A stretch of 64,000 bases of DNA from an uncultured Gammaproteobacteria bacterium. Its GTDB lineage: Bacteria; Pseudomonadota; Gammaproteobacteria; Steroidobacterales; Woeseiaceae. Of this stretch, positions 19,538 through 56,953 are shown piece after piece; positions within the stretch are counted from its first letter, which is position 1; every line of letters begins with the position of its first letter. The position numbers and the translations under genes are program-made. The stretch covers positions 59,080-123,079 of the forward strand of contig CAVONH010000021.1 of assembly GCA_963697245.1 (NCBI GenBank). The letters run 5' to 3'. The notes below the pieces were generated by a model, which was given only the letters and a program-made list of their open reading frames with translations, did not search any database and was not told the origin of the DNA.

Positions 19538-20614
19538 ATGGATCGCCGCCGGTTCATCGGCCTGTCGGCTGCGTTCGCAGCCGCGCCGCTTGCAACGGCG
19601 TGCGGCGGCCAGGAGAAAGTTCCAGCCGCCGGGGTCCCGCGCAGCTGCGTTCGACGATGACTCCACGGCCGAGGACGTGACGGACGGCATCGACCTGTCG
19701 GGCAAGATCGCCGTCGTAACGGGCTGCACGTCGGGGATCGGCTTCGAGACGATGCGCGTGCTGGCATTGCGGGGCGCCTGGGTCATCGGTACCAGCCGCT
19801 CGCTGCAGCGCGCGGACGAAGCCTGTCGGCGGGTGCGCGGCAAGACGACACCGCTCGAGCTCGAACTCTCCGACTTCGACTCGGTGGTGCGGCTGCGCCG
19901 AGACGATACGGTCACTGAACTCGCCCATCGATATGCTGGTGCTGAACGCGGGCTACCGGGGAGGAGGCAACGAGCGCACCCTGATCGGTGGCATCGAGAA
20001 GCATTTCCTCGTCAACCACCTCGGCCATTTCGTGCTCGTGAACCGGCTGCTCGACCGGCTCTACTTCGGCTGGCAGGGCCGCATCGTCGTGGTCGCGAGT
20101 CGTGCCGCGTATCGCGGCGCACCCGACGAGTGGCATCCGTTTCGATGACCTGACGCTTGCGTCCGACTACAGCGACTCGCTGGCCTACGGCCACTCGAAG
20201 CTCGCGAACGTCCTGTTCTCGCTCGAGCTGGGCAGGCTGCTCAAGGGCACCCGCATCACGTCGAACGCGCTGCACCCCGGCGTGATCGACACCGAGATCG
20301 ACCGCAACCTCAATCGCTTCATGCAGTTCGGTTTCGGCGTGCTGACGGCCCTGCGCGGCAAGTCGGTAGAAGCCGGCGCGGCCACGTCCTGCTACGTGGC
20401 GACCAGTCCGCTGCTCGGTTCGACGAGCGGGCGCTACTTCGAAGACTGCAACGCGGTCGAGGTCCCCGGCAGCCATCTGCAGGACATGGCGATGGCCGAC
20501 AGGCTGTGGCTGGTGTCCGAGGAACTGACGCGGGACTACCTCGTCAAGCACGAACGTCCGGACTGGAACGAGTTCGAAAACGGGCTGCGTAAGCCGGCAG
20601 GGACGGCGCAGTGA
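19538..20614 (+). pseudogene. Tat-signal lipoprotein SDR-family oxidoreductase, three frameshifts as sequenced
   Basis: MDRRRFIGLSAAFAAAPLATAC gives a twin-arginine motif plus lipobox. Then GKIAVVTGCTSGIGFET (TGxxxGxG), MLVLNAGY...VNHLGHF, and YGHSKLANVLF (YxxxK). These are read across frames, with changes near 19625, 19925 and 20125. Confidence 0.75.
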
Positions 20615-21292
20615 GCGGCGACGGGGAGCAAGCGCTGGTCGTGCTGTCGGGCGGACAGGATTCGACCACCTGCCTGCACTGGGCGATCGATCGTTTCGGA
20701 CGGGCCGATGTATCGAGCATCACGCTTCGACTACGGCCAGAGGCACCGCATCGAGCTGGAGTGCGCGCGCAACGTCGCGGCGGCTGCCGGCGTGCCGAAC
20801 GTCTGCCTGCCCATCGATACCTTCGCGGCGCTCGGGGGCGACGCCCTGACCGATGCGTCGGTTCCCGTCAGCGAAGCGACCGAAGAAGACAGCGAATTGC
20901 CGGTGACTTTCGTGGCCGGCCGCAACCTGATTTTCCTGACGTTCGCGGCTGCTTATGCCTACCGGCACGACGCGCGGCATCTCGTGACCGGCGTCGCGCA
21001 GACGGATTACAGCGGCTACCCGGATTGCCGCGAGGAGACCATGGCCGCCCTGCAGAAGGCGATCACGCTCGGCATGGATCGCGAATTCACGATCCACACG
21101 CCGCTGATGCACCGCTCCAAGCGGGAGACTGTCGAGCTTGCCGTACGGCTCGGCGCGCTCGAAGCGATGGCCCTGACGCACACCTGTTACAACGGCCGCC
21201 GTCCGCCCTGCGGCGAATGCCAGGCCTGCCGGCTGCGCGCGAAGGGCTTTGCGGAGGCCGGAGTGAGGGACCCCTTGCTCGATCTCCGATGA
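20611..21292 (+). pseudogene. queC: 7-cyano-7-deazaguanine synthase QueC, one frameshift as sequenced
   Basis: ALVVLSGGQDSTTCLHWA...SSIT then FDYGQRHRIELECA...VAGRNLIFL...CYNGRRPPCGECQACRLRAKGF (Zn-binding Cys cluster). An extra base at about 20725 (acgCttcgac) causes the shift. The GTG start overlaps the SDR stop. Confidence 0.85.
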
Positions 21293-21935
21293 CGTACACG
21301 GTCCGCGAAATCTATTACACGCTGCAGGGCGAGGGTGCCCGCACCGGCACGCCCGCGGTGTTCCTGCGCTTTGCCGGCTGCAATCTCTGGTCGGGCCGCG
21401 AACAGCATCGAGTGCAGGCGGTCTGCCGTTTCTGCGACACCGAATTCGTCGGCACCGAGCGGGCCGGGCGGCGGCAAGTTCGCAACGGCCGGGCGAACTG
21501 GCCGCTGCCGTCGCGAGCGCCTGGCCCGCACCCGACGCGCACCGCACTCGCTACGTGGTCTGCACCGGCGGCGAACCCCTGCTGCAGCTCGACGCGGCAG
21601 CGATCGATGCCCTGCACGCGGCGGGGTTCGAGGTCGGCGTGGAGACGAACGGTACGATCGCGGCGCCGCCGGGGGTCGACTGGTTGTGCGTCAGCCCGAA
21701 AGGCAATGCGGCACTGGAGCAAACGTCCGGCGACGAACTGAAACTCGTCTATCCGCAGGTCGAGCAAGAGGCACAACCCGGGCGCTTCGAGTCACTCGAA
21801 TTCCGGCACTTCTACCTGCAGCCGCTGGATGACGAGCGGCGCGACGCGAACACCCGCGCCACGATCGACTACTGTCTCGCGCACCCGCGCTGGAAGCTCA
21901 GCCTGCAGACACACAAGATCCTCGGCATCGCCTAG
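21289..21935 (+). pseudogene. queE: 7-carboxy-7-deazaguanine synthase QueE (radical SAM), two frameshifts as sequenced
   Basis: MTYTVREIYYTLQGEGARTGTPAVFLRFAGCNLWSG...CRFCDTEF (CxxxCxxC-type cluster), then GPGGGKFATAG, then ELAAAVASAW...YVVCTGGEPLLQL...GVETNGT...FYLQPLDD...KLSLQTHKILGI. Frame changes lie near 21460 and 21495. The ATG overlaps the queC stop. Confidence 0.85.
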
Positions 21936-21954
21936 GCGCTTTAGCGGGGCAGGA

Positions 21955-22779
21955 TCAGGCAGCTTCTTCGTGGCTTTCGTGGCGCCATTCCACGACGTTG
22001 AGCTCGATAAACACGAACGCGACGAGCCACAGCAACGCATCCCACCAGTCCACGAAATCGCCAGTGACCATCCAGGCTATGACGGCGAGCCCGAGAATGG
22101 AGTAGAGCACGAACTTGGCCACGGTGCTGACTTTGAGCGCCAGACCCTCGAAGCGGTTTTTCTCCTGCAGGCGCACGTCGATTTCGAGAATGAGCACGAC
22201 CAGCAGCCACACGGCGGCATTCACGACATCGACCATCGCGAGGAAGTGGATGCCGGCAAGCCCGGGTTCATCGACCACGGCAGCGACGCCGTCGAAGCGC
22301 ACGAATGAACCGAGATTGCTGAAGGTGCTGCAGTTGGACGTCGTGATCTCGACGTACTCGCCGAAGGTCGTCGCGTAGGACCAGTTCTGGCCGACCAGGT
22401 CGCAAACGTGGCTTATGCCATCGAGCGAGGTCGTCTGGAAGACGTACGCAGCGTCCTCGACGTAGCCGTAGAACGCGAACAGGATGAACAGGTAGCACGT
22501 GGCCCGCAGGGCATGCAGGGATATCTTGACGGTCGGGGTGAAGTGCCGGTCCTCGAGCACGTAGGTTTCCAGCTCGAACATCAGCAGCAGGACCACCCAT
22601 GCCGCCGTGTCGACAGTGGCCGCGTAGGCCTTGAAGATATCGCTGCCGGCTATGCCCTGCGGGTATTCGAGGCGTGCGGCAAGCCACTCCTCGCCGAAAA
22701 AGACGAAGACATTTATTGTCAGCAGGGTATAAATCGAGTACTTGAAAAGCTGGTACAGGACTCTGCCGTCGATTTTCAA
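21955..22779 (-). CDS. Uncharacterised polytopic membrane protein with a thrice-repeated D..W......E motif
   Basis: Intact 274-aa ORF with about 6 TM helices. Three related segments are DTAAWVVLLLMFELETYVLEDRHF, DVVNAAVWLLVVLILEIDVRLQEKNRF and DWWDALLWLVAFVFIELNVVEWRHE. I recognise no family. Confidence 0.6.
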   Translation of the reverse strand: MKIDGRVLYQLFKYSIYTLLTINVFVFFGEEWLAARLEYPQGIAGSDIFKAYAATVDTAAWVVLLLMFELETYVLEDRHFTPTVKISLHALRATCYLFILFAFYGYVEDAAYVFQTTSLDGISHVCDLVGQNWSYATTFGEYVEITTSNCSTFSNLGSFVRFDGVAAVVDEPGLAGIHFLAMVDVVNAAVWLLVVLILEIDVRLQEKNRFEGLALKVSTVAKFVLYSILGLAVIAWMVTGDFVDWWDALLWLVAFVFIELNVVEWRHESHEEAA

Positions 22780-22862
22780 GCAGCGTTTCCTCCGGACGCG
22801 CCGCCCCTGGCAGGGTGGCTGGCGGTCATAGGTGCCGAATTCGCACTAAACTAGACAAAGCC

Positions 22863-23657
22863 ATGAGCACACGCAATCGACTTATCAAATTTATTTCCGA
22901 CCGCGACTGGCGCATCTGGTTTGGGCTGGTTGTTACCTTCGTCTGGATCGGCGGCGGTCTGTGGTTCGTCACCGGCAGCGTCGCGGCGGACCCCGACCAG
23001 GAGCTGACGCTCGACGTCATCGGAAACTTCCTGGAGGGCGCATTCGCGCCGCTCGCTTTTCTGTGGCTCGTACTCGGGCTGTTCATGCAGCAACGTGAGC
23101 TCGCGAACAACACGGAGATGCTGCGGCGCACGTCCGAGCAGTCGGAAAAGCAGACGCAGGCGATTGCCGCCACCGAAATGAACGCCAGGCAGGAGACCTT
23201 TTTCAAGATCGCGGAGAGCGTTCGGCACCAGCTCGGCGGCATCACCGGCATGTTGTTTGCGGGCGGGCTGGGCCCGGTCGGCAGCCAGCGTTTCAGCCGT
23301 GAGGAGATCGCCGACATGTTCCAGAAAGCGTCGAGCGGCGATACCGAGATCTTTGCGCGGCAGATGCTGTCGATGGAATACATGGAGGAGGGCGGTATCG
23401 GTTCGCTCCTGTACGACACCGAGGTCCGCCGCCGCCACACGCGCAATTACCGGCGTACGTTCGAGCGGCTCGTCGAGCTGGGCCGCGGCTGCGATGTCGA
23501 CGGCATCATCGTCGACTCGATGAAGCAGTCCGGTTTCGGCCTGCTGTACGAACAGATGAGCGCCTACATGCCCGATGATTTCGGTGCCGGGCACGCGGAG
23601 AGCGCTGCGGGTCAGTCCGGGGCGTCTTCGACTTCGACGTCCTCGAAGTCGGCGTAA
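22863..23657 (+). CDS. Uncharacterised membrane protein (2 TM plus coiled-coil/cytoplasmic domain)
   Basis: ATG at 22863. Translation: MSTRNRLIKFISDRDWRIWFGLVVTFVWIGGGLWFV...FAPLAFLWLVLGLFMQQRELANNTEMLRRTSEQSEKQ... ending in a Ser/Thr-rich tail. The 3' end overlaps the convergent Fic gene by 46 nt. Confidence 0.5.
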   Translation: MSTRNRLIKFISDRDWRIWFGLVVTFVWIGGGLWFVTGSVAADPDQELTLDVIGNFLEGAFAPLAFLWLVLGLFMQQRELANNTEMLRRTSEQSEKQTQAIAATEMNARQETFFKIAESVRHQLGGITGMLFAGGLGPVGSQRFSREEIADMFQKASSGDTEIFARQMLSMEYMEEGGIGSLLYDTEVRRRHTRNYRRTFERLVELGRGCDVDGIIVDSMKQSGFGLLYEQMSAYMPDDFGAGHAESAAGQSGASSTSTSSKSA

Positions 23658-24760
23658 TAGATCCAGATGTTTTCTTCGCCGGTCAGGAGCTCGATGTACT
23701 TCGGGTGGACGAAGACGTTTTCGCGGCCGCGCTTGATTTCCTTCAGAACGCCGATCTCGCACAGCTGCTTCAGGTACACGGAGGCCGTCTGGCGCTTGGC
23801 GATCCCCGAGTCGACGAGGTTGCCGATGCGGCAATAGGGCTGCTGGAACAGCAGTTCGACCAGCTCCCAGGAATAGATCTTGGGCAGCGTCTTGTTCACG
23901 TATTGCGCCGTGTGGGCCATCAGCTCGCGAATCGCCTTGATCTTCTCCGTCGTCCAGACGCAGGTTTCCTCGACGCCCTCCAGGATGAAGCTGATCCAGG
24001 GCTCCCACTGCTGTTCGTGGGTGACGCCCTTCAGCAGCAGGTAGTAGGCGGCCTTGTTGCTGATGATGAACCGGCTCAGGTAGAGGATGGGCGAGTCGAG
24101 CAGGCCGTGCTCGACGAGAAACAGGATATTGAGGATGCGCCCGGTGCGGCCGTTGCCGTCCGCGAACGGGTGGATCGCCTCGAACTGGTAGTGCTGCACC
24201 GCCATGCGCACGAGCGGGTCGATGTCGGTACTGCTTTGCATGAAGTCCGCCCAGTTATCGAGCATCGTCTGCAGGTGCTTCTGGCCGACCGGGGGCGTGT
24301 AGATGACTTCGCCCGACGCCCGGTTTTTCAGCGTTGTTCCAGATTCTGATCGAAGATCCAGCTCTATCCCTTTGACAATACTGACAATTTGTATGGCCAT
24401 GTCGGTCGTCATCATGCGCCGCTGAACCATCTTCGCGCCTTCGTACAGGGCGGTGCGATAGCGCAGCGCCTCCTTTGTCGCGGCATCGGCCTTGTCCTCG
24501 GCGACGTCGGCGAACTCGAACAGCTTGTCGGTGGTCGTGACGATGTTCTCGATCTCGGAGCTGGCCCGCGCCTCCAGGAGCGGCAGGGCGTTGACCAGCA
24601 CGGCCGAGTTCGGGATGAGCTCGGCCGCCTGCTTGAGCTCTGCGAGCGCCACGCGCGCGGAGATGCACTGTTTCAGGATATCCCGCGTTTCGATGAGTTC
24701 GAGCGGCGGCGGCAGGGGCGGCAGGTCGTTGTACGGCAGTTTCGGGTCGAATTCGGGCAT
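23612..24760 (-). CDS. Fic family protein (class II, intramolecular inhibitory helix; C-terminal wHTH-like region)
   Basis: Core motif is HPFADGNGRTGR, matching HxFx(D/E)GNGRxxR. An N-terminal SSEIEN matches the (S/T)xxxE(G/N) inhibitory motif. The likely start is MPEFDPKLPYNDLPPLPPP (ATG complement at 24758-24760). Confidence 0.85.
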   Translation of the reverse strand: MPEFDPKLPYNDLPPLPPPLELIETRDILKQCISARVALAELKQAAELIPNSAVLVNALPLLEARASSEIENIVTTTDKLFEFADVAEDKADAATKEALRYRTALYEGAKMVQRRMMTTDMAIQIVSIVKGIELDLRSESGTTLKNRASGEVIYTPPVGQKHLQTMLDNWADFMQSSTDIDPLVRMAVQHYQFEAIHPFADGNGRTGRILNILFLVEHGLLDSPILYLSRFIISNKAAYYLLLKGVTHEQQWEPWISFILEGVEETCVWTTEKIKAIRELMAHTAQYVNKTLPKIYSWELVELLFQQPYCRIGNLVDSGIAKRQTASVYLKQLCEIGVLKEIKRGRENVFVHPKYIELLTGEENIWIYYADFEDVEVEDAPD

Positions 24761-24804
24761 CGTGCGGCTCCGGCGGGATCTTATGTCCAATTCAGCGGTA
24801 TTTT

Positions 24805-25060
24805 ATGACAAATATGTCGATAAAAGTGGAAAACTTCGACATATTTGGCTGCATATGTCGCTAAAAGTGGCAAAAATCGACATATTTGTCCGGATATGTC
24901 GATGGCATCGACAGTTTTCGCAATCACGTCGATATTTTCGAGAAATATCGACACGTTCACGAAACGCGTCGATAGCATCGACAGGTTCGGCAAACGTGTC
25001 GAATCATGGCTGCAATTTCGACATGTATCCAGTATAGGTCGATCGCGTCGACACGAATGT
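24805..25060. repeat. AT-rich array of at least 7 inverted-repeat pairs of (ATAT)GTCGA / TCGAC(ATAT), including a 41-bp tandem direct repeat
   Basis: The pairs are at 24812-24844, 24853-24885, 24894-24913, 24928-24952 (GTCGATATTT-TCGAG-AAATATCGAC, perfect), 24968-24982 (GTCGAT-AGC-ATCGAC), 24998-25022 and 25038-25052. Units 1 and 2 (24812-24852 and 24853-24893) are near-identical 41-mers. Confidence 0.85.
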
Positions 25061-25158
25061 GACCCAGGTGGGGAAATCCGCGTCGCCAACCGGCGACGTC
25101 GTGACAGGCCGGCCCGGCCCGCCTATCCTTGATCGCATCCATAGGGAGGGGGGGCGTT

Positions 25159-26403
25159 ATGGGCAAATTGAGGCACGTTGGCTGGTTATTTGTGTTCGGC
25201 TTGTGGGTCGCGGCCTGTGGCGGCAGCGGCGGCGACGGACCGTCGGTGTCGCCGCCACCACCTCCGCCGCCACCACCGCCACCGCCTGCAGCGGTCCCGT
25301 CGATCGACGTGGCGCAGGTGTTCCCGTCGCAGACCTTTGACCGGCTCGTGTCGCTGCAGCAGGCGCCGCGGGATGCGACGCGCTGGTTCGCGGTTGAGCA
25401 ACCTGGCGTAATCCGGCTGTTTGCGAACGACCAGGGCGCCGTGGCGAGCAGCGTGTTCCTCGACATTGTGGACCGCGTCAGCTCGGGAGGGGAACGCGGA
25501 CTGCTCGGCTTGGCATTCCATCCTGATTTTCCCGATACACCGGAGGTGTTCGTCGCCTATACGCGTTTGCCGGACGGATTTTCGCACGTGTCACGTTTCA
25601 CGAGCACGGATGCGGGACAGACCCTGGACGAGACCTCGGAGGAGGTGCTTCTGTCGGTGCCGCAGGACTTTGCAAATCACAATGGCGGCCACATCTTGTT
25701 CGGTCCCGACGGCTATCTCCATGTCGGCTTTGGTGACGGCGGCAGCGGCGGCGACCCGCTGGAACGCGCGCAGGACAATACGAACCTGCTCGGCACTATG
25801 GTCCGGATCGATGTCGATGGCGGAATCCCGTATGCCATCCCCGCGGCTGACCCGCCGAACCCGTTTGCCGCAAACCCCACATGTCCGCAAGGCTTTACCG
25901 TCGGCGGCGAGGAGTGCCCGGAGATCATGGCCTGGGGCTTGCGCAATCCCTGGCGCTACAGCTTCGACCGCCAGACTGGTGCCCTTTGGCTCGGCGACGT
26001 CGGCCAAAACAGCTGGGAAGAAGTCGACATCGTCACGGCCGGGGGTGACTACGGCTGGAATGACCGCGAGGGCGCGCACTGTTTCGATCCTCCGTCAGGC
26101 TGCGTCACCGATTCCACCGATCCTATTACGGAGTACGGTCGTGACCTCGGCGCTTCAATAACGGGCGGCTTCGTGTATCGCGGTAGTGCGATTCCCGACC
26201 TCGTCGGTTGGTACGTCTACGGCGATTTCATCAGCGGGCGTATTTTCGGCATACCTGCGGACAGTCCGGAAGGCACGGAGACCATCGTCTTGCTTGAATC
26301 CGGTCTTGGCATTTCGACGTTTGCGGAAGACCAGGACGGGGAACTCTACGTGATCAACTACAGCGGCAGCAGCACCATACACAGAATTACGGATGCCCCG
26401 TGA
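25159..26403 (+). CDS. PQQ-dependent sugar (glucose/sorbosone) dehydrogenase-like beta-propeller lipoprotein
   Basis: MGKLRHVGWLFVFGLWVAAC (lipobox), a 13-Pro linker, then GERGLLGLAFHPDF...NHNGGHILFGPDGYLHVGFGDGG...LGTMVRIDV...WGLRNPWRYSFD...GDVGQNSWEE...ITGGFVYRG. An RBS-like GGGAGG lies upstream. Confidence 0.8.
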   Translation: MGKLRHVGWLFVFGLWVAACGGSGGDGPSVSPPPPPPPPPPPPAAVPSIDVAQVFPSQTFDRLVSLQQAPRDATRWFAVEQPGVIRLFANDQGAVASSVFLDIVDRVSSGGERGLLGLAFHPDFPDTPEVFVAYTRLPDGFSHVSRFTSTDAGQTLDETSEEVLLSVPQDFANHNGGHILFGPDGYLHVGFGDGGSGGDPLERAQDNTNLLGTMVRIDVDGGIPYAIPAADPPNPFAANPTCPQGFTVGGEECPEIMAWGLRNPWRYSFDRQTGALWLGDVGQNSWEEVDIVTAGGDYGWNDREGAHCFDPPSGCVTDSTDPITEYGRDLGASITGGFVYRGSAIPDLVGWYVYGDFISGRIFGIPADSPEGTETIVLLESGLGISTFAEDQDGELYVINYSGSSTIHRITDAP

Positions 26404-26466
26404 GCGGCGCTTTGCTTTAAAATCCGGGCCCTCTTCAAGGTTGCAGGTCCGAACGGGAGAAGCAAA

Positions 26467-28143
26467 GTGAGCGTGAAGTCAGATATCGAAATCGCACAGG
26501 CCGCCAGTATTCTCCCGATCCAGGAGATCGGCGCGAAGATCGGCATACCGTCTGAAGCGCTGGTTCCCTACGGCCACGACAAGGCGAAGATCAGCGCCGA
26601 ATTCATCAATGCGAACGGCAAGCGCGAGGACGGCAAGCTCATCCTGGTGACGGCCGTATCGCCGACGCCTGCCGGCGAGGGCAAGACGACCACCACCGTC
26701 GGTCTCGGCGACGCGATGAACCTCATCGGCAAGCAGACCACCATCTGCCTGCGTGAGCCGAGCCTGGGGCCGTGTTTCGGCATGAAGGGCGGTGCAGCCG
26801 GCGGCGGTTACGCGCAGGTCGTGCCGATGACCGACATCAACCTGCACTTCACCGGCGACTTCCACGCGATCGGTGCCGCGCACAACCTGCTCGCCGCGCT
26901 GATCGACAACCACATGCACTGGGAGAACGAGCTCAACATCGATCCGCGCCGCGTCACCTGGCGGCGTGTCGTCGACATGAACGACCGCGCCCTCCGGTCG
27001 ATTACGTCGGGACTCGGTGGGTACCACAACGGCGTGGTCCGGGAGGCCGGTTTCGACATCACGGTCGCCTCCGAGATCATGGCGATCTTTTGTCTCGCGA
27101 CGAGCCTGTCCGATCTCGAGAACCGCCTCGCCAATATCGTCATCGGCTACACGCGCAACAACGAGCCCGTTACGGTGCGGCAGCTCAACGCGCACGGCGC
27201 GATGACGGCACTGCTCAAGGATGCGCTGCAGCCGAATCTCGTGCAGACGATGGAGAACAACCCCGCGCTGATGCACGGTGGCCCGTTCGCCAATATAGCC
27301 CACGGCTGCAACTCGGTGATGGCGACCAGAACGGCGCTGAAACTGTCCGACTATGTCGTCACCGAAGCGGGCTTCGGCGCCGATCTCGGCGCCGAGAAGT
27401 TCTTCAACATCAAGTGCCGCAAGGCAGGGCTGCGGCCCGATGCGGTTGTGCTGGTCGCGACCATCAAGGCGTTGAAGATGCACGGTGGCGTGCCGAAGGA
27501 CGAACTGGGCAAGGAGAATACCGAGGCGCTCGCGGCGGGCTGCAAGAACCTTGGCCGGCACATCCGCAATCTCGGCAAGTTCGGCGTGCCAGCGGTCGTC
27601 GCGATCAACCGCTACACGGCGGACACCGACGCGGAGGCGGCGGTCGTCAAGGATTTCTGCAAGGAGTTCGGCGTCAGTGCGATCGACTGCACCCACTGGG
27701 CCGACGGCGGCAAGGGTACTAAGGAGCTGGCCGAACACGTCGCCAGGCTGTGCGACAGCGGCGCCGCGCAATTCCGCACGCTCTACAACGACGATGTAAG
27801 CCTGTGGGAGAAGGCGCGTCGGGTCGCGCGGGAACTGTACGGTGCCGACGACATCATCGCCGACAAGAAGGTACGCGACGAATTTGCGAGCTTCGACGCG
27901 GCAGGCTACGGCAAGTACCCCGTTTGCATGGCGAAGACGCAGTACAGCTTTTCGACGGACCCCAACCTGCTGGGCGCGCCGTCCGGCCACGTCGTGCCGA
28001 TCCGCGAGATACGTCTTGCCGCCGGCGCAGAATTCGTGGTCGTCATCTGCGGCGCGATCATGACGATGCCGGGACTGCCGAGGAAACCCGCGGCCGACAA
28101 TATTCGCGTCAACAGCGCCGGCGAGATCGAGGGCCTGTTCTAG
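26467..28143 (+). CDS. fhs: Formate--tetrahydrofolate ligase
   Basis: 558 aa with a GTG start after GGGAGA. Translation: [24 protein letters not shown]...[23 protein letters not shown]...[15 protein letters not shown]. Confidence 0.92.
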
Positions 28144-28153
28144 GCACCGCGCG

Positions 28154-28405
28154 TCAGCCGTGCTCCTCGAGGCGGTGGCTGTCCGCCGCCGTGAGCGTGC
28201 AACCGTAGACGGACTTGAGCTGTTCGATGACGGCCTGCGTGTCGCGGGAAAAAGGCGCTTTGCCCTCGAAACTGTGCAGGACGATGCCCTCCAGCAGGTC
28301 GCCCAGGGACAGGTCCGTGTATTCGGCAAGCCCCTTGAGGACCTTCAGCAGGGAAGTCTCGATGCGCACCCCGGTCTGGGTGCGCTGTACGACACGCTTC
28401 GCCAT
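28154..28405 (-). CDS. Hypothetical 83-aa protein
   Basis: MAKRVVQRTQTGVRIETSLLKVLKGLAEYTDLSLGDLLEGIVLHSFEGKAPF... has an RHH-like N-terminus (inference only). It is divergent from the CadC-like regulator. Confidence 0.45.
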   Translation of the reverse strand: MAKRVVQRTQTGVRIETSLLKVLKGLAEYTDLSLGDLLEGIVLHSFEGKAPFSRDTQAVIEQLKSVYGCTLTAADSHRLEEHG

Positions 28406-28420
28406 GGCGGTGAATCCTGG

Positions 28421-28454
28421 GTGTTACAATTCTAACGAGATAACATAGTAACAC
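28421..28454. promoter_or_regulatory. Inverted repeat in a divergent promoter region
   Basis: GTGTTAC (28421-28427) and GTAACAC (28448-28454) form a perfect 7-bp inverted repeat with a 20-nt AT-rich spacer. It lies between genes starting at 28405 (-) and 28546 (+). Confidence 0.3.
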
Positions 28455-28545
28455 TTGCGGGCCGAATGCAGCGGATGGTCCCGGTGGCGTGTGCGATGCC
28501 GTACAATCGGCTCGCGCCACTGGGGTGGCGTGACAAGGGGGGCGG

Positions 28546-30438
28546 ATGCCGACAGAAGACGAGCTACGACAGGGCTTCCGGCTCGGTGACTGGGAAGTGC
28601 TGCCGTTGCGCGGTGTGCTGCGCAGGGACGGCCGCGAGGAGAAGCCCGAGCCGAGGGTATTCGGCGTGCTGATCGCGCTGGCGAAGCGCGACGGCGACCT
28701 GGTGACGCGCGACGAGCTGGTCGACGAACTCTGGGACGGCCGGCCCACGAGCGATGAGCCGATCAACCGCTGCCTGTCGCAACTGCGCCGGCACCTGGGC
28801 GACAAGTCCAGGCCGCACCGCTACGTCGAGACGCTGACGCGACGCGGCTACCGCCTGGTGCAGCCGGTGGAGCCGCTGGAGCACGCCGAGCCGGCTGAAC
28901 CCGCAGCCGAGCCAGCGCTTGCGCCACTCAGCAAAGCCCCCGCGGCGGCCTGGAAGCCGCTGCTCGCAGTGATCGGCGTCGCAATGCTCGCCTGGCTGGC
29001 GTGGTTCCTGTGGCCGCCCGGCGACTTTCGCTCGATCGGCGTGATGCCGTTCGAGAATGCCAGCAAGGATCCCGCGAACGACTACCTGGTCGCCGGCTTC
29101 AAGGACGAGCTGGTGAACACGCTGCACAATATCCCGGACTTCACGGTGAAGAGCAGCAGGGTCGTCCACTCCGGGGAAGAGGTGGCGGCGATCGCCGATA
29201 GCCTCGGCGTGGATGCCGTTCTTTCGGGGCGTGTGCATCGCGTCGGCAACGATCTGCAGATCTTCTATACCGTCGAGGATGGCCGCAACGGCGACGTCGT
29301 CGCCACCGCCGAAATCGAGGGACCGGTCAGCGAAATCTTCCAGCTGCAGGAGGACCTCGCGCGCATGGTACGCCGCGACCTGTTTGGACAATCCTCGCAG
29401 CAGCTGATCAGCAGGACGCGCCCAGCGAGCTTCGGTGCGTACGACCGTTACATGCGCGGGCTGTATGCGTTCGACAAGCGCCAGGACAGCGGCACGAGCC
29501 TGGAAGAGGCCATTGAACTGTTTCAGCAGACGATCCGGCTGGATGAGAACTTCGGGCCGGCCTACGTGATGCTCGCGACCGCCTACGTGTTGCTGCCGAC
29601 CTACCGCGACGCGCCCACCGACGAGATGAGCAAGGCGGCCATCGCGACGGCGGAGCAAGGGATTAGCGTCGACCCCGGCATCCGCGATGCCGCCAACGCG
29701 ATCTTCGGCTTCGTCCACCACCAGCAAATGCGGTGGCTGGAAGCGGAGGAGGCTTACAGGGCTGCGACGTCCGCGCAGGTGGTCGATCCGAATGCGTTCA
29801 ACTGGTACTCGCGCATGCTCGCCTCGGTCGGCAGGCTCGACGCGTCGCTCGACCAGGCGCTGCGCGCGCTGGAGCTGGACCCGACGTCGGCAGTGATCAA
29901 CAGCCGCGTTGCGCTCGCTTATTTGTGGCTGGGCGATACGCACAATGCGCAGGAGTTCTTCGAACGCGCCGCGAAGTTCGGCGCCAGCGGTCCCACGCAC
30001 ACCATGGGATACGCGCTTTTCCTGTTTCGCGAGAACCGCAGCGCGGAGGCATACGAGCTGTCGCGACAGGCTGCACAGATGGCGGGTGGCAGCGAAGCGT
30101 GGATCGATCCCGTGTTTGCGGCGCTGGACGACGATACTCAGCGCGACGCCGCGCTTGTCGCTGTCGATGAGGCTGCGGCACAAGGCGGTATCAGCCGGCA
30201 GATCGAGTTCATCGTGCGCACCGTACTGGGCGACCTCGACGGTGCGATGCGCGTCGCGCGACTGCTCGAGAGCGAGGGCGAAGTATTCGAGATGGATCTG
30301 CTGTTCATTCCCGAGGTCGCGCCCCTGCGCGAACACCAGGACTTCGCAAGGTTGCTCGATGCGCTCGGCATTAGCGAGTACTGGCGTGCACGCGGTTGCG
30401 CGTGGACCGGCTCCGCAGCGGTATGCGAAGCAGCCTAG
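28546..30438 (+). CDS. CadC/ToxR-like membrane-bound transcriptional regulator (OmpR-type wHTH, TM, TPR domain)
   Basis: The N-terminus FRLGDWEVLPLRGVLRRDG...PRVFGVLIALAKRDGDLVTRDELVDELWDGRPTSDEPINRCLSQLRRHL...ETLTRRGYRL is a trans_reg_C-type winged helix. It is followed by one TM helix (LLAVIGVAMLAWLAWFLW) and a C-terminal TPR-like helical repeat region. Confidence 0.75.
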   Translation: MPTEDELRQGFRLGDWEVLPLRGVLRRDGREEKPEPRVFGVLIALAKRDGDLVTRDELVDELWDGRPTSDEPINRCLSQLRRHLGDKSRPHRYVETLTRRGYRLVQPVEPLEHAEPAEPAAEPALAPLSKAPAAAWKPLLAVIGVAMLAWLAWFLWPPGDFRSIGVMPFENASKDPANDYLVAGFKDELVNTLHNIPDFTVKSSRVVHSGEEVAAIADSLGVDAVLSGRVHRVGNDLQIFYTVEDGRNGDVVATAEIEGPVSEIFQLQEDLARMVRRDLFGQSSQQLISRTRPASFGAYDRYMRGLYAFDKRQDSGTSLEEAIELFQQTIRLDENFGPAYVMLATAYVLLPTYRDAPTDEMSKAAIATAEQGISVDPGIRDAANAIFGFVHHQQMRWLEAEEAYRAATSAQVVDPNAFNWYSRMLASVGRLDASLDQALRALELDPTSAVINSRVALAYLWLGDTHNAQEFFERAAKFGASGPTHTMGYALFLFRENRSAEAYELSRQAAQMAGGSEAWIDPVFAALDDDTQRDAALVAVDEAAAQGGISRQIEFIVRTVLGDLDGAMRVARLLESEGEVFEMDLLFIPEVAPLREHQDFARLLDALGISEYWRARGCAWTGSAAVCEAA

Positions 30439-44828: not shown

Positions 44829-46304
44829 TCAGCCCTCGCGCTCCCAGAAGTCGGCGTTCTTGATGCCGAGCTTTTTCGGGTCGAAGGTGTACTTCGTCAC
44901 GCCCGCTTTCATCTGCGCTTCGTAGTCCTTCAGCGCGGTCAGCGCCGGTCTGCCCATCAGGAACAGGATGAGGATACCGATGATGTTGAGCCAGGCCATC
45001 AGGCCCACGCCCATGTCACCGAGCGCCCAGGCAAGGTCCGCGGTGCGTACCGTCCCGTAGAAGACGGCGCTCAGCATCAGCACTTTGAGCACGGTGATTT
45101 CGCCGGGAATACGAATGGAGCGTCGTATGTAAGCGACGTTGGTCTCGGCGATGTAGTAGTAGGCGAGGATCGTCGTGAACGCGAAGAAGAACAGCGCGAA
45201 CGCCACGAAGGTCTTGCCGAAACCGCCGATAACACTCTCGAGCGCGTACTGCGTGAACGCGGGGCTGTTCGCGAGCACGTCGGTGCTCAGCAGGCCGCCG
45301 CTCTCCGTCGCTTCGACGCCCGTGACGTAGTACTGGTTGGTGATCAGGATCATGAATGCCGTCGCCGAGCACACGAACAGCGTGTCGACGTAGACCGAGA
45401 ATGCCTGCACGAGACCCTGCTGCGCGGGATGTTCGACCTCCGAGGCCGCGGCCGCGTGCGGGCCCGTGCCCTGGCCGGCTTCATTGGAGTAGACGCCACG
45501 TTTCACGCCCCAGCCGATCGCCGCGCCGATGCCCGCCATCGGCGTGAATGCGTCCGTGATGATCAGCATCAGGATGCCCGGCAGGGCCGTGATGTGCATC
45601 AGGATGATGACGATCGCCAGCAGCACGTAACCAACCGCCATGAACGGCACGACGACCTGTGTAAAGTGCGCAATGCGCTTGACGCCGCCGAAGATGATGA
45701 AGCCGAGCAGGAACACGACGAAAATGGCCGTGGCCAGCTTGGTATAGGTCACCGAGCCGAGCGAGGTTTCCAGTACACCGGAACCGCCGAAGGCCAGGTC
45801 CGCCGCGTTGCCGATGGCGTTCGACTGCACGGTCGGCAACAGCAGGCCGACGGCAAAGATGGTCGTGATGGCGAATATCCACGCGTACCACTTCTGGCCC
45901 ATGGCCTTCTCGATGTAGTACGCGGGTCCGCCGCGCAACTGGCCTTCGTCTTCTTCCTTGTAGATCTGGCCGAGTGCAGACTCGACGTAGGCGGTCGCGG
46001 CGCCAAGAAAAGCAACGACCCACATCCAGAAGACGGCACCGGGACCGCCGAAACCGATCGCTGCGGCCACGCCCGCAATGTTGCCGGTTCCCACGCGGCC
46101 CGACAGCGATACCGATAATGCCTGGAAGGACGAGATGCCGCGATCGGACTCCTTGCTCGAGAACAGCAGCTTGATCATCTCGCGGAAAAGGCGCACCTGC
46201 ACGAAGCGGGTAAGAACCGAATAGAAGAGCCCCGCCGCGAGCAGCAGGTACACGAGTACCGGGCTCCAGACAAAGCTGTTGATCAGATCGACGTATTCCT
46301 GCAT
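44829..46304 (-). CDS. Alanine/glycine:cation symporter (AGCS family)
   Basis: 491 aa, polytopic. Translation: ...SSFQALSVSLSGRVGTGNIAGVAAAIGFGGPGAVFWMW...SNEAGQGTGPHAAAASEV. This is the typical AGCS signature. Confidence 0.88.
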   Translation of the reverse strand: MQEYVDLINSFVWSPVLVYLLLAAGLFYSVLTRFVQVRLFREMIKLLFSSKESDRGISSFQALSVSLSGRVGTGNIAGVAAAIGFGGPGAVFWMWVVAFLGAATAYVESALGQIYKEEDEGQLRGGPAYYIEKAMGQKWYAWIFAITTIFAVGLLLPTVQSNAIGNAADLAFGGSGVLETSLGSVTYTKLATAIFVVFLLGFIIFGGVKRIAHFTQVVVPFMAVGYVLLAIVIILMHITALPGILMLIITDAFTPMAGIGAAIGWGVKRGVYSNEAGQGTGPHAAAASEVEHPAQQGLVQAFSVYVDTLFVCSATAFMILITNQYYVTGVEATESGGLLSTDVLANSPAFTQYALESVIGGFGKTFVAFALFFFAFTTILAYYYIAETNVAYIRRSIRIPGEITVLKVLMLSAVFYGTVRTADLAWALGDMGVGLMAWLNIIGILILFLMGRPALTALKDYEAQMKAGVTKYTFDPKKLGIKNADFWEREG

Positions 46305-56877: not shown

Positions 56878-56953
56878 GGGGGTATAGCTCAGTCGGTAGA
56901 GCATCGGCCTTTTAAGCCGCTGGTCCTAGGTTCGAATCCTAGTGCCCCCACCA
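56878..56953 (+). tRNA. tRNA-Lys (anticodon UUU)
   Basis: 76 nt folded by hand. Acceptor stem GGGGGTA/TGCCCCC, D-arm GCTC-AGTCGGTA-GAGC, anticodon loop CTTTTAA, T-arm CTAGG-TTCGAAT-CCTAG, discriminator A and an encoded CCA. Confidence 0.92.

What the first reader, a model, noticed from the sequence alone, without database searches (positions are those of the whole stretch)
24805..25060. AT-rich array of at least seven GTCGA/TCGAC inverted-repeat pairs upstream of the Fic gene
The 400-nt gap between the Fic start (24760, minus) and the dehydrogenase start (25159, plus) contains a ~260-bp stretch much poorer in G+C than its surroundings. The first 41-nt unit is 15/41 G+C by hand count.

The stretch is built almost entirely from successive palindromic pairs of the half-site (ATAT)GTCGA / TCGAC(ATAT):
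- 24812-24844
- 24853-24885
- 24894-24913
- 24928-24952 (perfect GTCGATATTT-TCGAG-AAATATCGAC)
- 24968-24982 (GTCGAT-AGC-ATCGAC)
- 24998-25022
- 25038-25052

The pairs start 29-42 nt apart. The first two units are a near-identical 41-bp tandem repeat (ATATGTCGaTAAAAGTGGaAAAcTTCGACATATTTG).

No CDS explains this. The listed ORFs across it (24492-25037, 24781-25089, 24845-25132) are composition artefacts whose peptides merely echo the repeat. It is not CRISPR-like, because the repeats are palindromic half-sites with no constant repeat and no unique spacers. I see no transposase or rep gene.

Such architecture resembles multi-operator, iteron or partition-centromere protein-binding arrays. One candidate binder is the wHTH-like C-terminal region of the adjacent Fic protein (inference).

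In the plus frame, units 1 and 2 also encode twin micro-ORFs, MSIKVENFDIFGCICR and MSLKVAKIDIFVRICR.... Neither has a visible RBS.
Basis: partly seen in the sequence, partly recalled or inferred. Interest (0 to 1): 0.7.

Follow-up and report, generated by a model that had tools for sequence, protein, structure and literature searches.

The report
Amplified operator array of a SoFic gene
The AT-rich repeats upstream of the Fic gene are most likely the gene's own binding sites for its DNA-binding tail, copied in tandem to about three times the usual number, which makes this a lineage-specific variant of a known autoregulatory design.

Summary
Window 24784-25053 holds seven clear palindromes and one degenerate one, all built from the half-site TGTCGA/TCGACA. 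They come in two spacing classes: L (15-nt inner spacer) and S (5-nt).

L and S alternate in a 70-bp module. The cores sit on a 10.05-bp lattice, and the array is unique in the 64 kb.

The adjacent gene is a full-length orthologue of SoFic, a class II Fic AMPylase with a C-terminal winged helix (wHTH).

The same L/S architecture lies upstream of SoFic-type genes across several phyla. Its density is 5.0 per kb upstream, against 0.13 per kb elsewhere in the same loci.

In four close relatives the half-site columns are 97% invariant, against 49% for the other array columns.

One residue of the predicted recognition helix co-varies with one operator base. On my tree this needs about 7-8 separate changes.

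A 2026 preprint shows that SoFic binds the 100 bp upstream of its own start codon. That fragment carries this motif.

The array is therefore best read as the Fic autoregulatory operator. In Woeseiaceae-type loci it is amplified to 4-11 palindromes, and to about 20 in one metagenome contig, against a median of 2 elsewhere.

Binding and repression were not tested here. The principle is already known from CccR and SoFic. The motif, the protein/operator co-variation and the amplification were not found in the literature library I searched.

The parts
23612..24760 (-). fic gene, 382 aa. [quoted passage not shown]
   Evidence: Pfam Fic_N, Fic and SoFic-like_C. PADLOC SoFic model, E = 3e-119. PDB SoFic chains 3eqx and 9tch, E about 1e-145 over residues 4-370. 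The Fic motif HPFADGNGRTGR and the inhibitory motif SSEIEN are visible in the translation.
24784..24810 (.). L' palindrome, degenerate. In fic sense it reads TGTCA-N16-TGGACA. It is the site nearest the start codon and ends 24 nt upstream of the ATG.
   Evidence: Read. Both arms are conserved in four relatives (TTTGYCATAA and GAATTGRACATAAG). It matches the degenerate proximal L' seen in most other loci.
24815..24841 (.). L palindrome TGTCGA-N15-TCGACA; unit 1 of the 41-bp tandem repeat.
   Evidence: (D4).
24856..24882 (.). L palindrome TGTCGC-N15-TCGACA; unit 2 of the 41-bp tandem repeat, a recent duplication.
   Evidence: The duplicated unit is present in the window and in L081 and absent in L082 and L083.
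24897..24913 (.). S palindrome TGTCGA-N5-TCGACA.
   Evidence: 0 mismatches. The arms are invariant and the inner 5 nt vary in relatives.
24927..24953 (.). L palindrome CGTCGA-N15-TCGACA. It contains the perfect 25-bp palindrome at 24928-24952.
   Evidence: (I1).
24967..24983 (.). S palindrome CGTCGA-N5-TCGACA.
   Evidence: 1 mismatch.
24997..25023 (.). L palindrome TGTCGA-N15-TCGACA.
25037..25053 (.). Distal S palindrome; in fic sense TGTCGACGCGATCGACC.
   Evidence: Its arms and flanks are conserved in four relatives.
25031..25036 (-). TATACT, a -10-like hexamer directly after the distal S in fic sense; candidate fic promoter element (inferred).
   Evidence: Invariant in all four relatives. 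Present after an S in at least 8 of the 17 Woeseiaceae-type loci. In other phyla the S sits between TTGACG and TAnnCT. No good -35 is found here.
25081..25098 (.). G+C-rich palindrome CGTCGC-N6-GCGACG. It may be a variant site or an unrelated hairpin.
   Evidence: D6. Largely conserved in four relatives. The 6-nt spacer does not fit the L or S class.

Best explanation
The array is the operator region of the adjacent SoFic-type fic gene.

**Proposed mechanism.** Fic dimers would bind the half-site A-Y-R-TGTCGA-T through the recognition helix of their C-terminal winged helix (residues 323-335, KRQTASVYLKQL). This would repress transcription of their own gene, whose product is a toxic AMPylase.

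**Ancestral module.** Found in most phyla, it is L (TGTCGA-N15-TCGACA), then S (TGTCGA-N5-TCGACA), then a degenerate L' that abuts the start codon. S occupies the 17-bp spacer between a TTGACG -35 and a TAnnCT -10.

**State in this lineage.** In Woeseiaceae-type loci the 70-bp L+S module has been duplicated in tandem, and in this genome a 41-bp L unit as well. Seven clear palindromes plus L' now cover about 270 bp, from a conserved TATACT to 24 nt before the ATG. All lie on a roughly 10-bp lattice, so several dimers could occupy the region together.

**Shown here:** the anatomy, the conservation, the link to fic, and the co-variation between protein and operator.

**Inferred:** binding in this organism, repression, the number of dimers bound, the position of the promoter, and cooperativity.
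For: **1. The motif goes with the gene.**
- In 80 genomes carrying a homologue (56-83% identity; Gamma-, Beta- and Alphaproteobacteria, Planctomycetes, Verrucomicrobia, Acidobacteria, a cyanobacterium), L/S palindromes with at most 1 mismatch number 235 in 47 kb upstream of fic. There are 73 in the other 548 kb of the same loci.
- The densest hexamer cluster of the locus lies within 500 bp upstream of fic in 51 of 81 cases. Most of the remainder use the variant TGTCGC.

**2. Spacing is quantised.** Convergent arms are 9 or 19 nt apart and divergent arms 21-22 nt apart.

**3. Phylogenetic footprint.** In four syntenic relatives (Fic 90-95% identical), 69 of 71 half-site columns are invariant, against 83 of 169 other array columns (Fisher p = 1e-14).

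**4. Co-variation of protein and operator.**
- Residue 328 is Arg in 23 of 23 loci whose sixth half-site base is not A. It is not Arg in 51 of 52 loci with TGTCGA (Fisher p = 2e-18).
- On a neighbour-joining tree built without the wHTH domain, the two characters need 8 and 7 changes.
- Two Hyphomicrobium loci have RH for RQ in the helix and a different core, TGGAAC-N15-GTTCCA.
- The predicted secondary structure places residues 323-335 as helix 3 of an H1-b-H2-H3-b-b winged helix. pLDDT there is 58-81.

**5. Published experiments on relatives.**
- Dimeric SoFic, but not the monomeric mutant, binds 300 bp of its own upstream DNA, most strongly the proximal 100 bp. It does not bind a composition-matched control (bioRxiv 10.64898/2026.07.09.737422).
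- That fragment holds TTTACA-TGTCGATTGAATCGACA-TAAGCT plus the left arm of L'.
- CccR, a related Fic-HTH protein, represses its own promoter through inverted repeats (PMC9755527).

**6. Promoter overlap.** The consensus around the proximal S in 59 other loci is tgTTGACg-S-TAt.CT.
Against: - No binding or expression data exist for this protein or organism.
- In the window no S has a convincing -35, and the promoter scan found nothing on the fic strand. The transcription start is therefore unknown, and most of the array may lie downstream of it.
- One rigid dimer cannot fit both the 20-bp and the 10-bp arm distances, so the stoichiometry is unresolved.
- Some real L+S modules in metagenomes have no fic gene beside them. 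In one Fic subfamily the module lies after the stop codon. The sites are therefore not only autoregulatory.
- The co-variation test is only roughly corrected for phylogeny.
Confidence: 0.75

Rival explanations
1. The amplified array is mainly a docking or titration platform, and only secondarily a transcriptional operator. It would hold many Fic dimers on DNA and so set the free concentration or the catalytic state of a toxic AMPylase. This does not exclude autorepression by the ancestral module.
For: - Copy number is far above what repression needs and is very variable: 4-11 palindromes in Woeseiaceae-type loci, about 20 over at least 640 bp in L110, against a median of 2 elsewhere.
- Duplications are recent.
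- DNA binding changes the AMPylation and deAMPylation activity of the related CbFic2 (PMC10628234).
- SoFic AMPylation and DNA binding both depend on the dimer.
Against: - No data show that DNA affects SoFic catalysis.
- One chromosomal array can hold only some tens of monomers.
- CbFic2 binds DNA without known sequence preference.
- The amplification could be neutral slippage of a tandem repeat.
Confidence: 0.15
2. A different DNA-binding protein, not Fic, recognises TGTCGA. Fic genes would merely share a regulon signal.
For: L+S modules without an adjacent fic gene exist in metagenome contigs (L137, L163, L182, L188, L203).
Against: - fic is the only gene common to the loci. Neighbours range from fhs to type I restriction genes.
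- The operator variant tracks a residue of the Fic recognition helix across several clades.
- SoFic binds the motif-bearing fragment in vitro.
Confidence: 0.05
3. The palindromes act as RNA hairpins in a long fic 5' leader, affecting stability, translation or attenuation, rather than as DNA sites.
For: - If the conserved TATACT at 25036-25031 is the -10, about 260 nt of leader would contain seven hairpin-forming palindromes.
- The change from TGTCGA/TCGACA to TGTCGC/GCGACA preserves pairing.
Against: - The sequence of the arms is conserved across phyla, which goes beyond conservation of pairing.
- In most loci the L site lies upstream of the -35 and would not be transcribed.
- The proximal L' has a degenerate arm that cannot pair.
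- There is no Rfam match.
- The co-variation is with a protein residue.
Confidence: 0.04
4. The array is a generic repeat: a MITE, replication iterons, a partition centromere or a CRISPR-like array.
For: It is AT-rich, repetitive and intergenic.
Against: - It is unique in the 64 kb.
- The background rate of the palindromes is 0.13 per kb.
- The repeats are inverted and are not same-orientation iterons.
- No rep, par, transposase or cas gene is among the neighbouring ORFs scanned against Pfam.
- Synteny is stable in relatives.
- There is no constant-repeat and unique-spacer organisation.
Confidence: 0.01

Closest known systems
SoFic (mloA, SO_4266) of Shewanella oneidensis and its own upstream DNA (bioRxiv 10.64898/2026.07.09.737422)
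   Same: - It is an orthologous protein: full-length match with E about 1e-145 and the same three Pfam domains.
- Dimer-dependent, sequence-specific binding to the proximal 100 bp upstream of its start codon was shown experimentally.
- That DNA carries the same S palindrome between -35-like and -10-like hexamers, plus L and L' arms.
   Different: - In the passages and supplement I read, the preprint names no motif and did not test transcriptional regulation.
- S. oneidensis has the minimal set of one perfect S, one S with 1 mismatch, and L/L' left arms with degenerate right arms. The window has seven palindromes plus L'.
- Here the promoter elements around S are not recognisable.
CccR of Yersinia pseudotuberculosis and its operator (PMC9755527)
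   Same: It is a class II Fic toxin with a C-terminal HTH domain. It binds as a dimer to inverted repeats around its own -35 and -10 and represses itself. This was shown by footprinting, EMSA, ITC and reporter assays.
   Different: - The operator is one pair, AGATAATCAT-N26-ATGATAATCT, which differs in both sequence and spacing.
- CccR is only 29% identical to SoFic over 45% coverage.
- It has no array and no two spacing classes.
- CccR is secreted by a type VI system.
CbFic2 of Coxiella burnetii (PMC10628234)
   Same: It is a class II Fic with a wHTH domain and a dimer. DNA binding stimulates and switches its catalytic activity.
   Different: Binding was shown only with random DNA and no specific site is known. 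It is a host-directed effector that modifies histone H3.
Operators of type II toxin-antitoxin modules such as phd/doc (own knowledge, not tested here)
   Same: A growth-arresting toxin, which in Doc has the Fido fold, is kept low by autorepression at palindromic sites in its own promoter.
   Different: There the antitoxin binds the DNA. Here toxin and DNA-binding domain are one polypeptide. The sites are also far more numerous here.

Membership tests
SoFic-type class II Fic protein (the adjacent gene) | Fic motif HPFx[D/E]GNGRxxR | tested here: met
   HPFADGNGRTGR is present in the translation of 23612-24760. Pfam Fic, E = 3e-15.
SoFic-type class II Fic protein (the adjacent gene) | N-terminal inhibitory helix motif (S/T)xxxE(G/N) | tested here: met
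   SSEIEN lies at residues 67-72 (invariant among 34 homologues). Pfam Fic_N, E = 8e-24. The motif definition is taken from PMC9755527.
SoFic-type class II Fic protein (the adjacent gene) | C-terminal winged helix domain and full-length similarity to SoFic | tested here: met
   Pfam SoFic-like_C, E = 8e-37, residues 280-355. PDB SoFic chains, E about 1e-145, residues 4-370. PADLOC SoFic, E = 3e-119. The predicted secondary structure is H-b-H-H-b-b.
Autoregulatory operator of a wHTH-Fic protein (CccR/SoFic kind) | Inverted repeats in the gene's own upstream region, conserved with the gene | tested here: met
Autoregulatory operator of a wHTH-Fic protein (CccR/SoFic kind) | Sites overlap the -35 and -10 promoter elements | tested here: inconclusive
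   At consensus level this holds in 59 other loci (TTGACG-S-TAnnCT; 24 of 59 pass a sigma-70 criterion). In the window only a conserved TATACT is seen and no -35.
Autoregulatory operator of a wHTH-Fic protein (CccR/SoFic kind) | Specific binding by the Fic dimer | not testable with these tools
   Support is indirect: co-variation of helix residue 328 with operator base 6, and the orthologue SoFic binding a fragment that carries the motif.
Autoregulatory operator of a wHTH-Fic protein (CccR/SoFic kind) | Repression of the gene's own transcription | not testable with these tools
   Shown only for CccR. The SoFic preprint states it was not tested.
CccR operator in the strict sense | Sequence AGATAATCAT-N26-ATGATAATCT | tested here: not met
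   The half-site here is AYRTGTCGAT with inner spacers of 5 or 15 nt.
Replication iterons or origin | Same-orientation repeats next to a rep gene | tested here: not met
   The half-sites alternate in orientation. The neighbours are fic, a GSDH-family gene, fhs and queCE. The array follows fic into unrelated contexts.
Partition centromere | Adjacent parA/parB-type genes | tested here: not met
   None is found among the neighbouring ORFs scanned against Pfam between 20611 and 30438, or in the syntenic relatives.
MITE or dispersed repeat | Many copies elsewhere in the genome | tested here: not met
   It is unique in the 64 kb. The background in 548 kb of related loci is 0.13 palindromes per kb. 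A complete genome of this lineage could not be scanned.
CRISPR array | Constant direct repeats separated by unique spacers | tested here: not met
   The repeated unit is an inverted pair. The 'spacers' have fixed lengths of 5, 13 and 15 nt.
Known RNA family (Rfam 15) | A match reaching the family's gathering score | tested here: not met
   No match lies in the array. Only three chance-level matches occur elsewhere in 20000-30000.

The most novel reading that the evidence does not exclude
The tandem amplification is adaptive. Under this reading the array assembles a phased, multi-dimer Fic-DNA complex of 8 to 20 or more dimers on a 10-bp lattice, which stores the toxic EF-Tu AMPylase in a DNA-bound state. 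It would release or activate the enzyme on a trigger such as phage infection. The operator array would then be a working part of a SoFic defence or growth-control switch as well as a repressor site.
Probability: 0.15. Interest if true: 0.7.

Novelty: new variant of a known kind. Interest (0 to 1): 0.5.

Why it matters
SoFic-type proteins are widespread single-gene toxins. They are listed as anti-phage defence systems, and a 2026 preprint identified EF-Tu as their AMPylation target and showed that they bind their own promoter.

This analysis supplies what that work lacks:
- the operator code: half-site AYRTGTCGAT in two spacing classes, within a conserved L-S-L' promoter module;
- a candidate specificity contact, residue 328 against operator base 6, which a swap experiment can test;
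- a lineage in which the module has been amplified three- to ten-fold.

Together these make the DNA-binding half of the proposed dual function directly testable. They also raise the question of why a toxin gene would accumulate many copies of its own operator.

Tried and rejected
- **Rfam and tRNA scans.** The Rfam scan of 20000-30000 at permissive threshold found nothing in the array. The tRNA scan found only tRNA-Lys at 56878.
- **Promoter and terminator scan of 24700-25200.** There were three consensus matches on the plus strand, two of which use TCGACA as a -35, and none on the fic strand. This was not informative.
- **ORFs crossing the array** (24492-25037, 24781-25089, 24845-25132). None has a Pfam match. 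I treat them as artefacts.
- **Twin micro-ORFs.** Rejected. Their ATG is part of the half-site consensus, and one of the two units is missing in L082 and L083.
- **Structure prediction of the Fic protein.** Mean pLDDT was 46.8 from a shallow alignment (80-95% identity). Only the secondary structure of the wHTH region (pLDDT 58-81) was used, and no fold search was run.
- **Reverse scan from motif to gene in metagenome contigs.** Informative but noisy. Of 120 loci, 39 have fic just downstream and 13 have the module right after the fic stop codon. The other 68 gave no tblastn hit. Many of these are chance matches inside coding sequence or contigs cut beside the motif.
- **The downstream module as promoter of an AS1-like antitoxin** (PMC12249575). 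No conserved small ORF follows it.
- **Literature searches for a described SoFic operator motif**. None was found in the held library.

Full report

Yes. The sequence at 24805-25060 reads as the first-stage reader described. The interval 24790-25075 contains GTCGA seven times and TCGAC seven times. The densest 300-bp windows of the 64 kb hold 14 such pentamers. The mean over all windows is 2.0 (sd 1.8), and the highest count away from the array is 8.

Written as palindromes, the sites fall into two classes.
- L has a 15-nt inner spacer, TGTCGA-N15-TCGACA: 24815-24841, 24856-24882 (left arm TGTCGC), 24927-24953 and 24997-25023.
- S has a 5-nt inner spacer: 24897-24913, 24967-24983 and 25037-25053.

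Pattern searches with mismatches find these sites. The only other match in the window is one 2-mismatch S-like site at 46277. Shuffles predict 0.2-0.3 matches.

The 41-bp tandem repeat is confirmed. G+C falls to 0.41 in the array, against 0.64 overall.

I add two elements. A degenerate palindrome at 24784-24810 lies nearest the fic start. A G+C-rich palindrome, CGTCGC-N6-GCGACG, lies at 25081-25098. The TCGA cores sit on a lattice of 10.05 bp (resultant length 0.90; the 99.9th percentile of random placements is 0.79). They do not fit a 10.5-bp lattice (0.12).

**2. What are the neighbours?**

The gene to the left (23612-24760, minus strand, ATG at 24760) has the Pfam domains Fic_N, Fic and SoFic-like_C. 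It matches the PADLOC SoFic model at E = 3e-119. It matches the solved SoFic structures over its full length at E about 1e-145.

Its sequence carries the catalytic motif HPFADGNGRTGR and the class II inhibitory motif SSEIEN.

To the right, on the plus strand, are a GSDH-family lipoprotein gene (25159-26403) and then fhs. There is no Rfam match in the array and no tRNA nearby. The ORFs that cross the array have no Pfam match.

**3. Does the array travel with the gene?**

A scan of one genome per species returned 80 loci with homologues of 56-83% identity. They come from Woeseiaceae and other Gammaproteobacteria, Beta- and Alphaproteobacteria, Planctomycetes, Verrucomicrobia, Acidobacteria and a cyanobacterium.

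The 450 bp upstream of fic are enriched for TGTCGA/TCGACA in most of them. In 51 of 81 loci the densest cluster of the hexamer in the whole 5-9-kb locus lies directly upstream of fic.

Most loci that seemed to lack the motif use the variant TGTCGC/GCGACA in the same layout. Allowing one mismatch, L and S palindromes number 235 in 47 kb of upstream sequence, against 73 in the remaining 548 kb of the same loci.

Distances between neighbouring arms are quantised: 9 or 19 nt for convergent pairs and 21-22 nt for divergent pairs. The half-site logo is A-Y-R-T-G-T-C-G-A-T.

The usual layout outside Woeseiaceae is L, then S, then an L' whose right arm has decayed to TAAACAT and abuts the start codon. 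The consensus around the proximal S is tgTTGACg-TGTCGaTg.cAtCGACA-TAt.CT. S therefore fills the 17-bp spacer of a sigma-70-type promoter. By a simple criterion, 24 of 59 loci pass individually.

**4. Phylogenetic footprint in close relatives**

Three contigs encoding Fic proteins 95, 92 and 90% identical to the window's share its gene order: fhs, GSDH, array, fic, two unknown genes (one in L083), then queE and queC where the fetched locus reaches that far (L082, L083).

In the four-way alignment of the intergenic region, 69 of 71 half-site columns are invariant, against 83 of 169 other columns inside the array (Fisher p = 1e-14). The inner nucleotides of S and the middle of L change freely.

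The second 41-bp L unit is present in the window and in L081 but absent in L082 and L083, so it is a recent tandem duplication. In L081 the two copies are identical. In the window they are 83% alike.

A TATACT directly after the distal S (25036-25031 on the fic strand) is invariant in all four. It recurs in at least 8 of the 17 Woeseiaceae-type loci.

**5. Who binds the sites?**

fic is the only gene common to all these loci. Its neighbours range from fhs to type I restriction genes.

More directly, the operator variant tracks the protein. Residue 328 (Val in the window, within KRQTASVYLKQL) is Arg in all 23 loci whose sixth half-site base is C or T. It is not Arg in 51 of 52 loci with TGTCGA (Fisher p = 2e-18).

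On a neighbour-joining tree built from residues 20-299 only, the two characters need 8 and 7 changes by parsimony. The association therefore recurs in several clades. This is only a rough correction for shared ancestry.

Two Hyphomicrobium loci have RH in place of RQ at the start of the helix. They use a different core, TGGAAC-N15-GTTCCA, at the same spacing.

The structure prediction was poor overall (mean pLDDT 46.8). In the C-terminal domain (pLDDT 58-81) it gives the winged-helix order H298-306, strand, H312-317, H323-335, and two strands. This places residues 323-335 as the recognition helix.

**6. What is already known?**
- CccR of Yersinia pseudotuberculosis is a class II Fic toxin with a C-terminal HTH domain. 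It represses its own promoter as a dimer by binding AGATAATCAT-N26-ATGATAATCT (PMC9755527).
- A July 2026 preprint shows that dimeric SoFic AMPylates EF-Tu. It also shows that SoFic binds 300 bp of its own upstream DNA and prefers the proximal 100 bp. A monomeric mutant and a composition-matched random fragment do not bind. In the passages I read it names no motif and states that regulation was not tested.
- The DNA sequences in its supplement show the following. The bound proximal fragment contains TTTACA-TGTCGATTGAATCGACA-TAAGCT and the left arm of L'. The middle fragment holds an S with one mismatch. The distal fragment has no site.
- CbFic2 of Coxiella binds DNA without known specificity, and binding changes its catalytic activity (PMC10628234).
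- I found no paper that describes the TGTCGA motif.

**7. What is particular to this window?**

Woeseiaceae-type loci carry 4-11 L/S palindromes (median 6). The other 64 loci have a median of 2 and a maximum of 5. One metagenome contig with the same fhs neighbour has about 20 palindromes over at least 640 bp (L110).

The unit of amplification is the 70-bp L+S module. In the window a 41-bp L unit has also been duplicated. With seven clear palindromes plus L', the window is intermediate.

In these loci the S sites lack a recognisable -35, and the promoter scan found nothing on the fic strand. If TATACT is the -10, most of the array lies in the transcribed leader, where bound protein would act as a roadblock. 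This is inference.

**8. Most likely mechanism, and rivals**

Most likely, Fic dimers bind the half-sites through helix 3 of the winged helix and repress fic. The amplified, phased array would allow several dimers to bind together (confidence 0.75).

The geometry is unresolved. Arms 20 bp apart (about 68 Å) are close to the 70-Å separation of DNA-binding helices reported for the CccR dimer. The 10-bp arms of S would need a different arrangement, possibly one winged helix from each of two dimers.

Rivals:
- The amplification serves as a docking or titration platform for a toxic enzyme (0.15; not exclusive of autorepression).
- Another protein binds the sites (0.05).
- The palindromes act as RNA hairpins (0.04).
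- The array is a generic repeat, iteron or centromere (0.01).

**9. Reverse test and loose ends**

I searched metagenome contigs for the composite pattern TCGACA-N13/14-TGTCGA-N5-TCGACA and obtained 120 loci.
- 39 have a SoFic homologue starting within 700 bp downstream.
- In 13 the module starts two or three nucleotides after the stop codon of a Fic of about 50% identity, usually with no module upstream. No conserved small ORF follows it.
- The other 68 gave no tblastn hit. They include chance matches inside coding sequence, contigs cut beside the motif, and some genuine L+S modules with other neighbours.

The sites are therefore strongly, but not exclusively, tied to the 5' end of fic. A wider regulon remains possible.

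**10. Verdict**

The kind of element is known: the autoregulatory operator of a Fic protein with a winged helix.

The new points are the operator code of the SoFic clade, the co-variation between protein and operator, and the tandem amplification in this lineage. I rate the finding a new variant of a known kind, with interest 0.5.

Noticed in passing
L096, L098, L100, L101, L108, L116, L118, L119, L121, L156, L172, L173, L185 (about +1090 to +1230 from each fic start): In a SoFic subfamily of about 50% identity, an S-L-S module begins 2-3 nt after the fic stop codon. There is usually no module upstream, and fic then follows hsdM-like genes. No conserved small ORF follows the module, so its role is unexplained.
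   Followed up: partly
L033 and L073 (Hyphomicrobium), 260 bp upstream of fic: The operator core is TGGAAC-N15-GTTCCA instead of TGTCGA-N15-TCGACA, at the same spacing. The recognition helix begins ERH instead of KRQ. This looks like a second specificity switch.
   Followed up: partly
L110:1924-2565 (contig JAAUXY010137888.1): This is the largest array seen: about 20 L/S palindromes over at least 640 bp next to fhs. The held stretch ends before the expected fic gene.
   Followed up: partly
L137, L163/L171, L182, L188, L149, L203: Genuine L+S modules with no SoFic homologue detected beside them, for example next to a serine-recombinase-like ORF in L137. They may be orphan operators or regulon members.
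   Followed up: no
window 20611-21935: queC and queE each appear split over two reading frames. QueC residues 1-31 lie in one frame and residues 30-209 in another. The QueE N- and C-termini are also in different frames. These are sequencing indels or pseudogenes.
   Followed up: no
window 22815-23657 (+): A 280-aa ORF with predicted membrane segments has no Pfam or PADLOC match. It overlaps the 3' end of fic convergently by 46 bp and is conserved in L081 and L082.
   Followed up: no
window 25081-25098: A G+C-rich palindrome, CGTCGC-N6-GCGACG, lies between the array and the GSDH gene and is largely conserved in four relatives. Its 6-nt spacer fits neither the L nor the S class.
   Followed up: partly
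L081:2598-3006 compared with window 24812-24893: The two 41-bp L units are identical to each other in L081 but only 83% alike in the window. This suggests independent duplication or gene conversion.
   Followed up: no
window 25250-25286: A 12-15-bp tandem repeat encodes a Pro-rich linker after the lipoprotein signal peptide of the GSDH-family protein.
   Followed up: no
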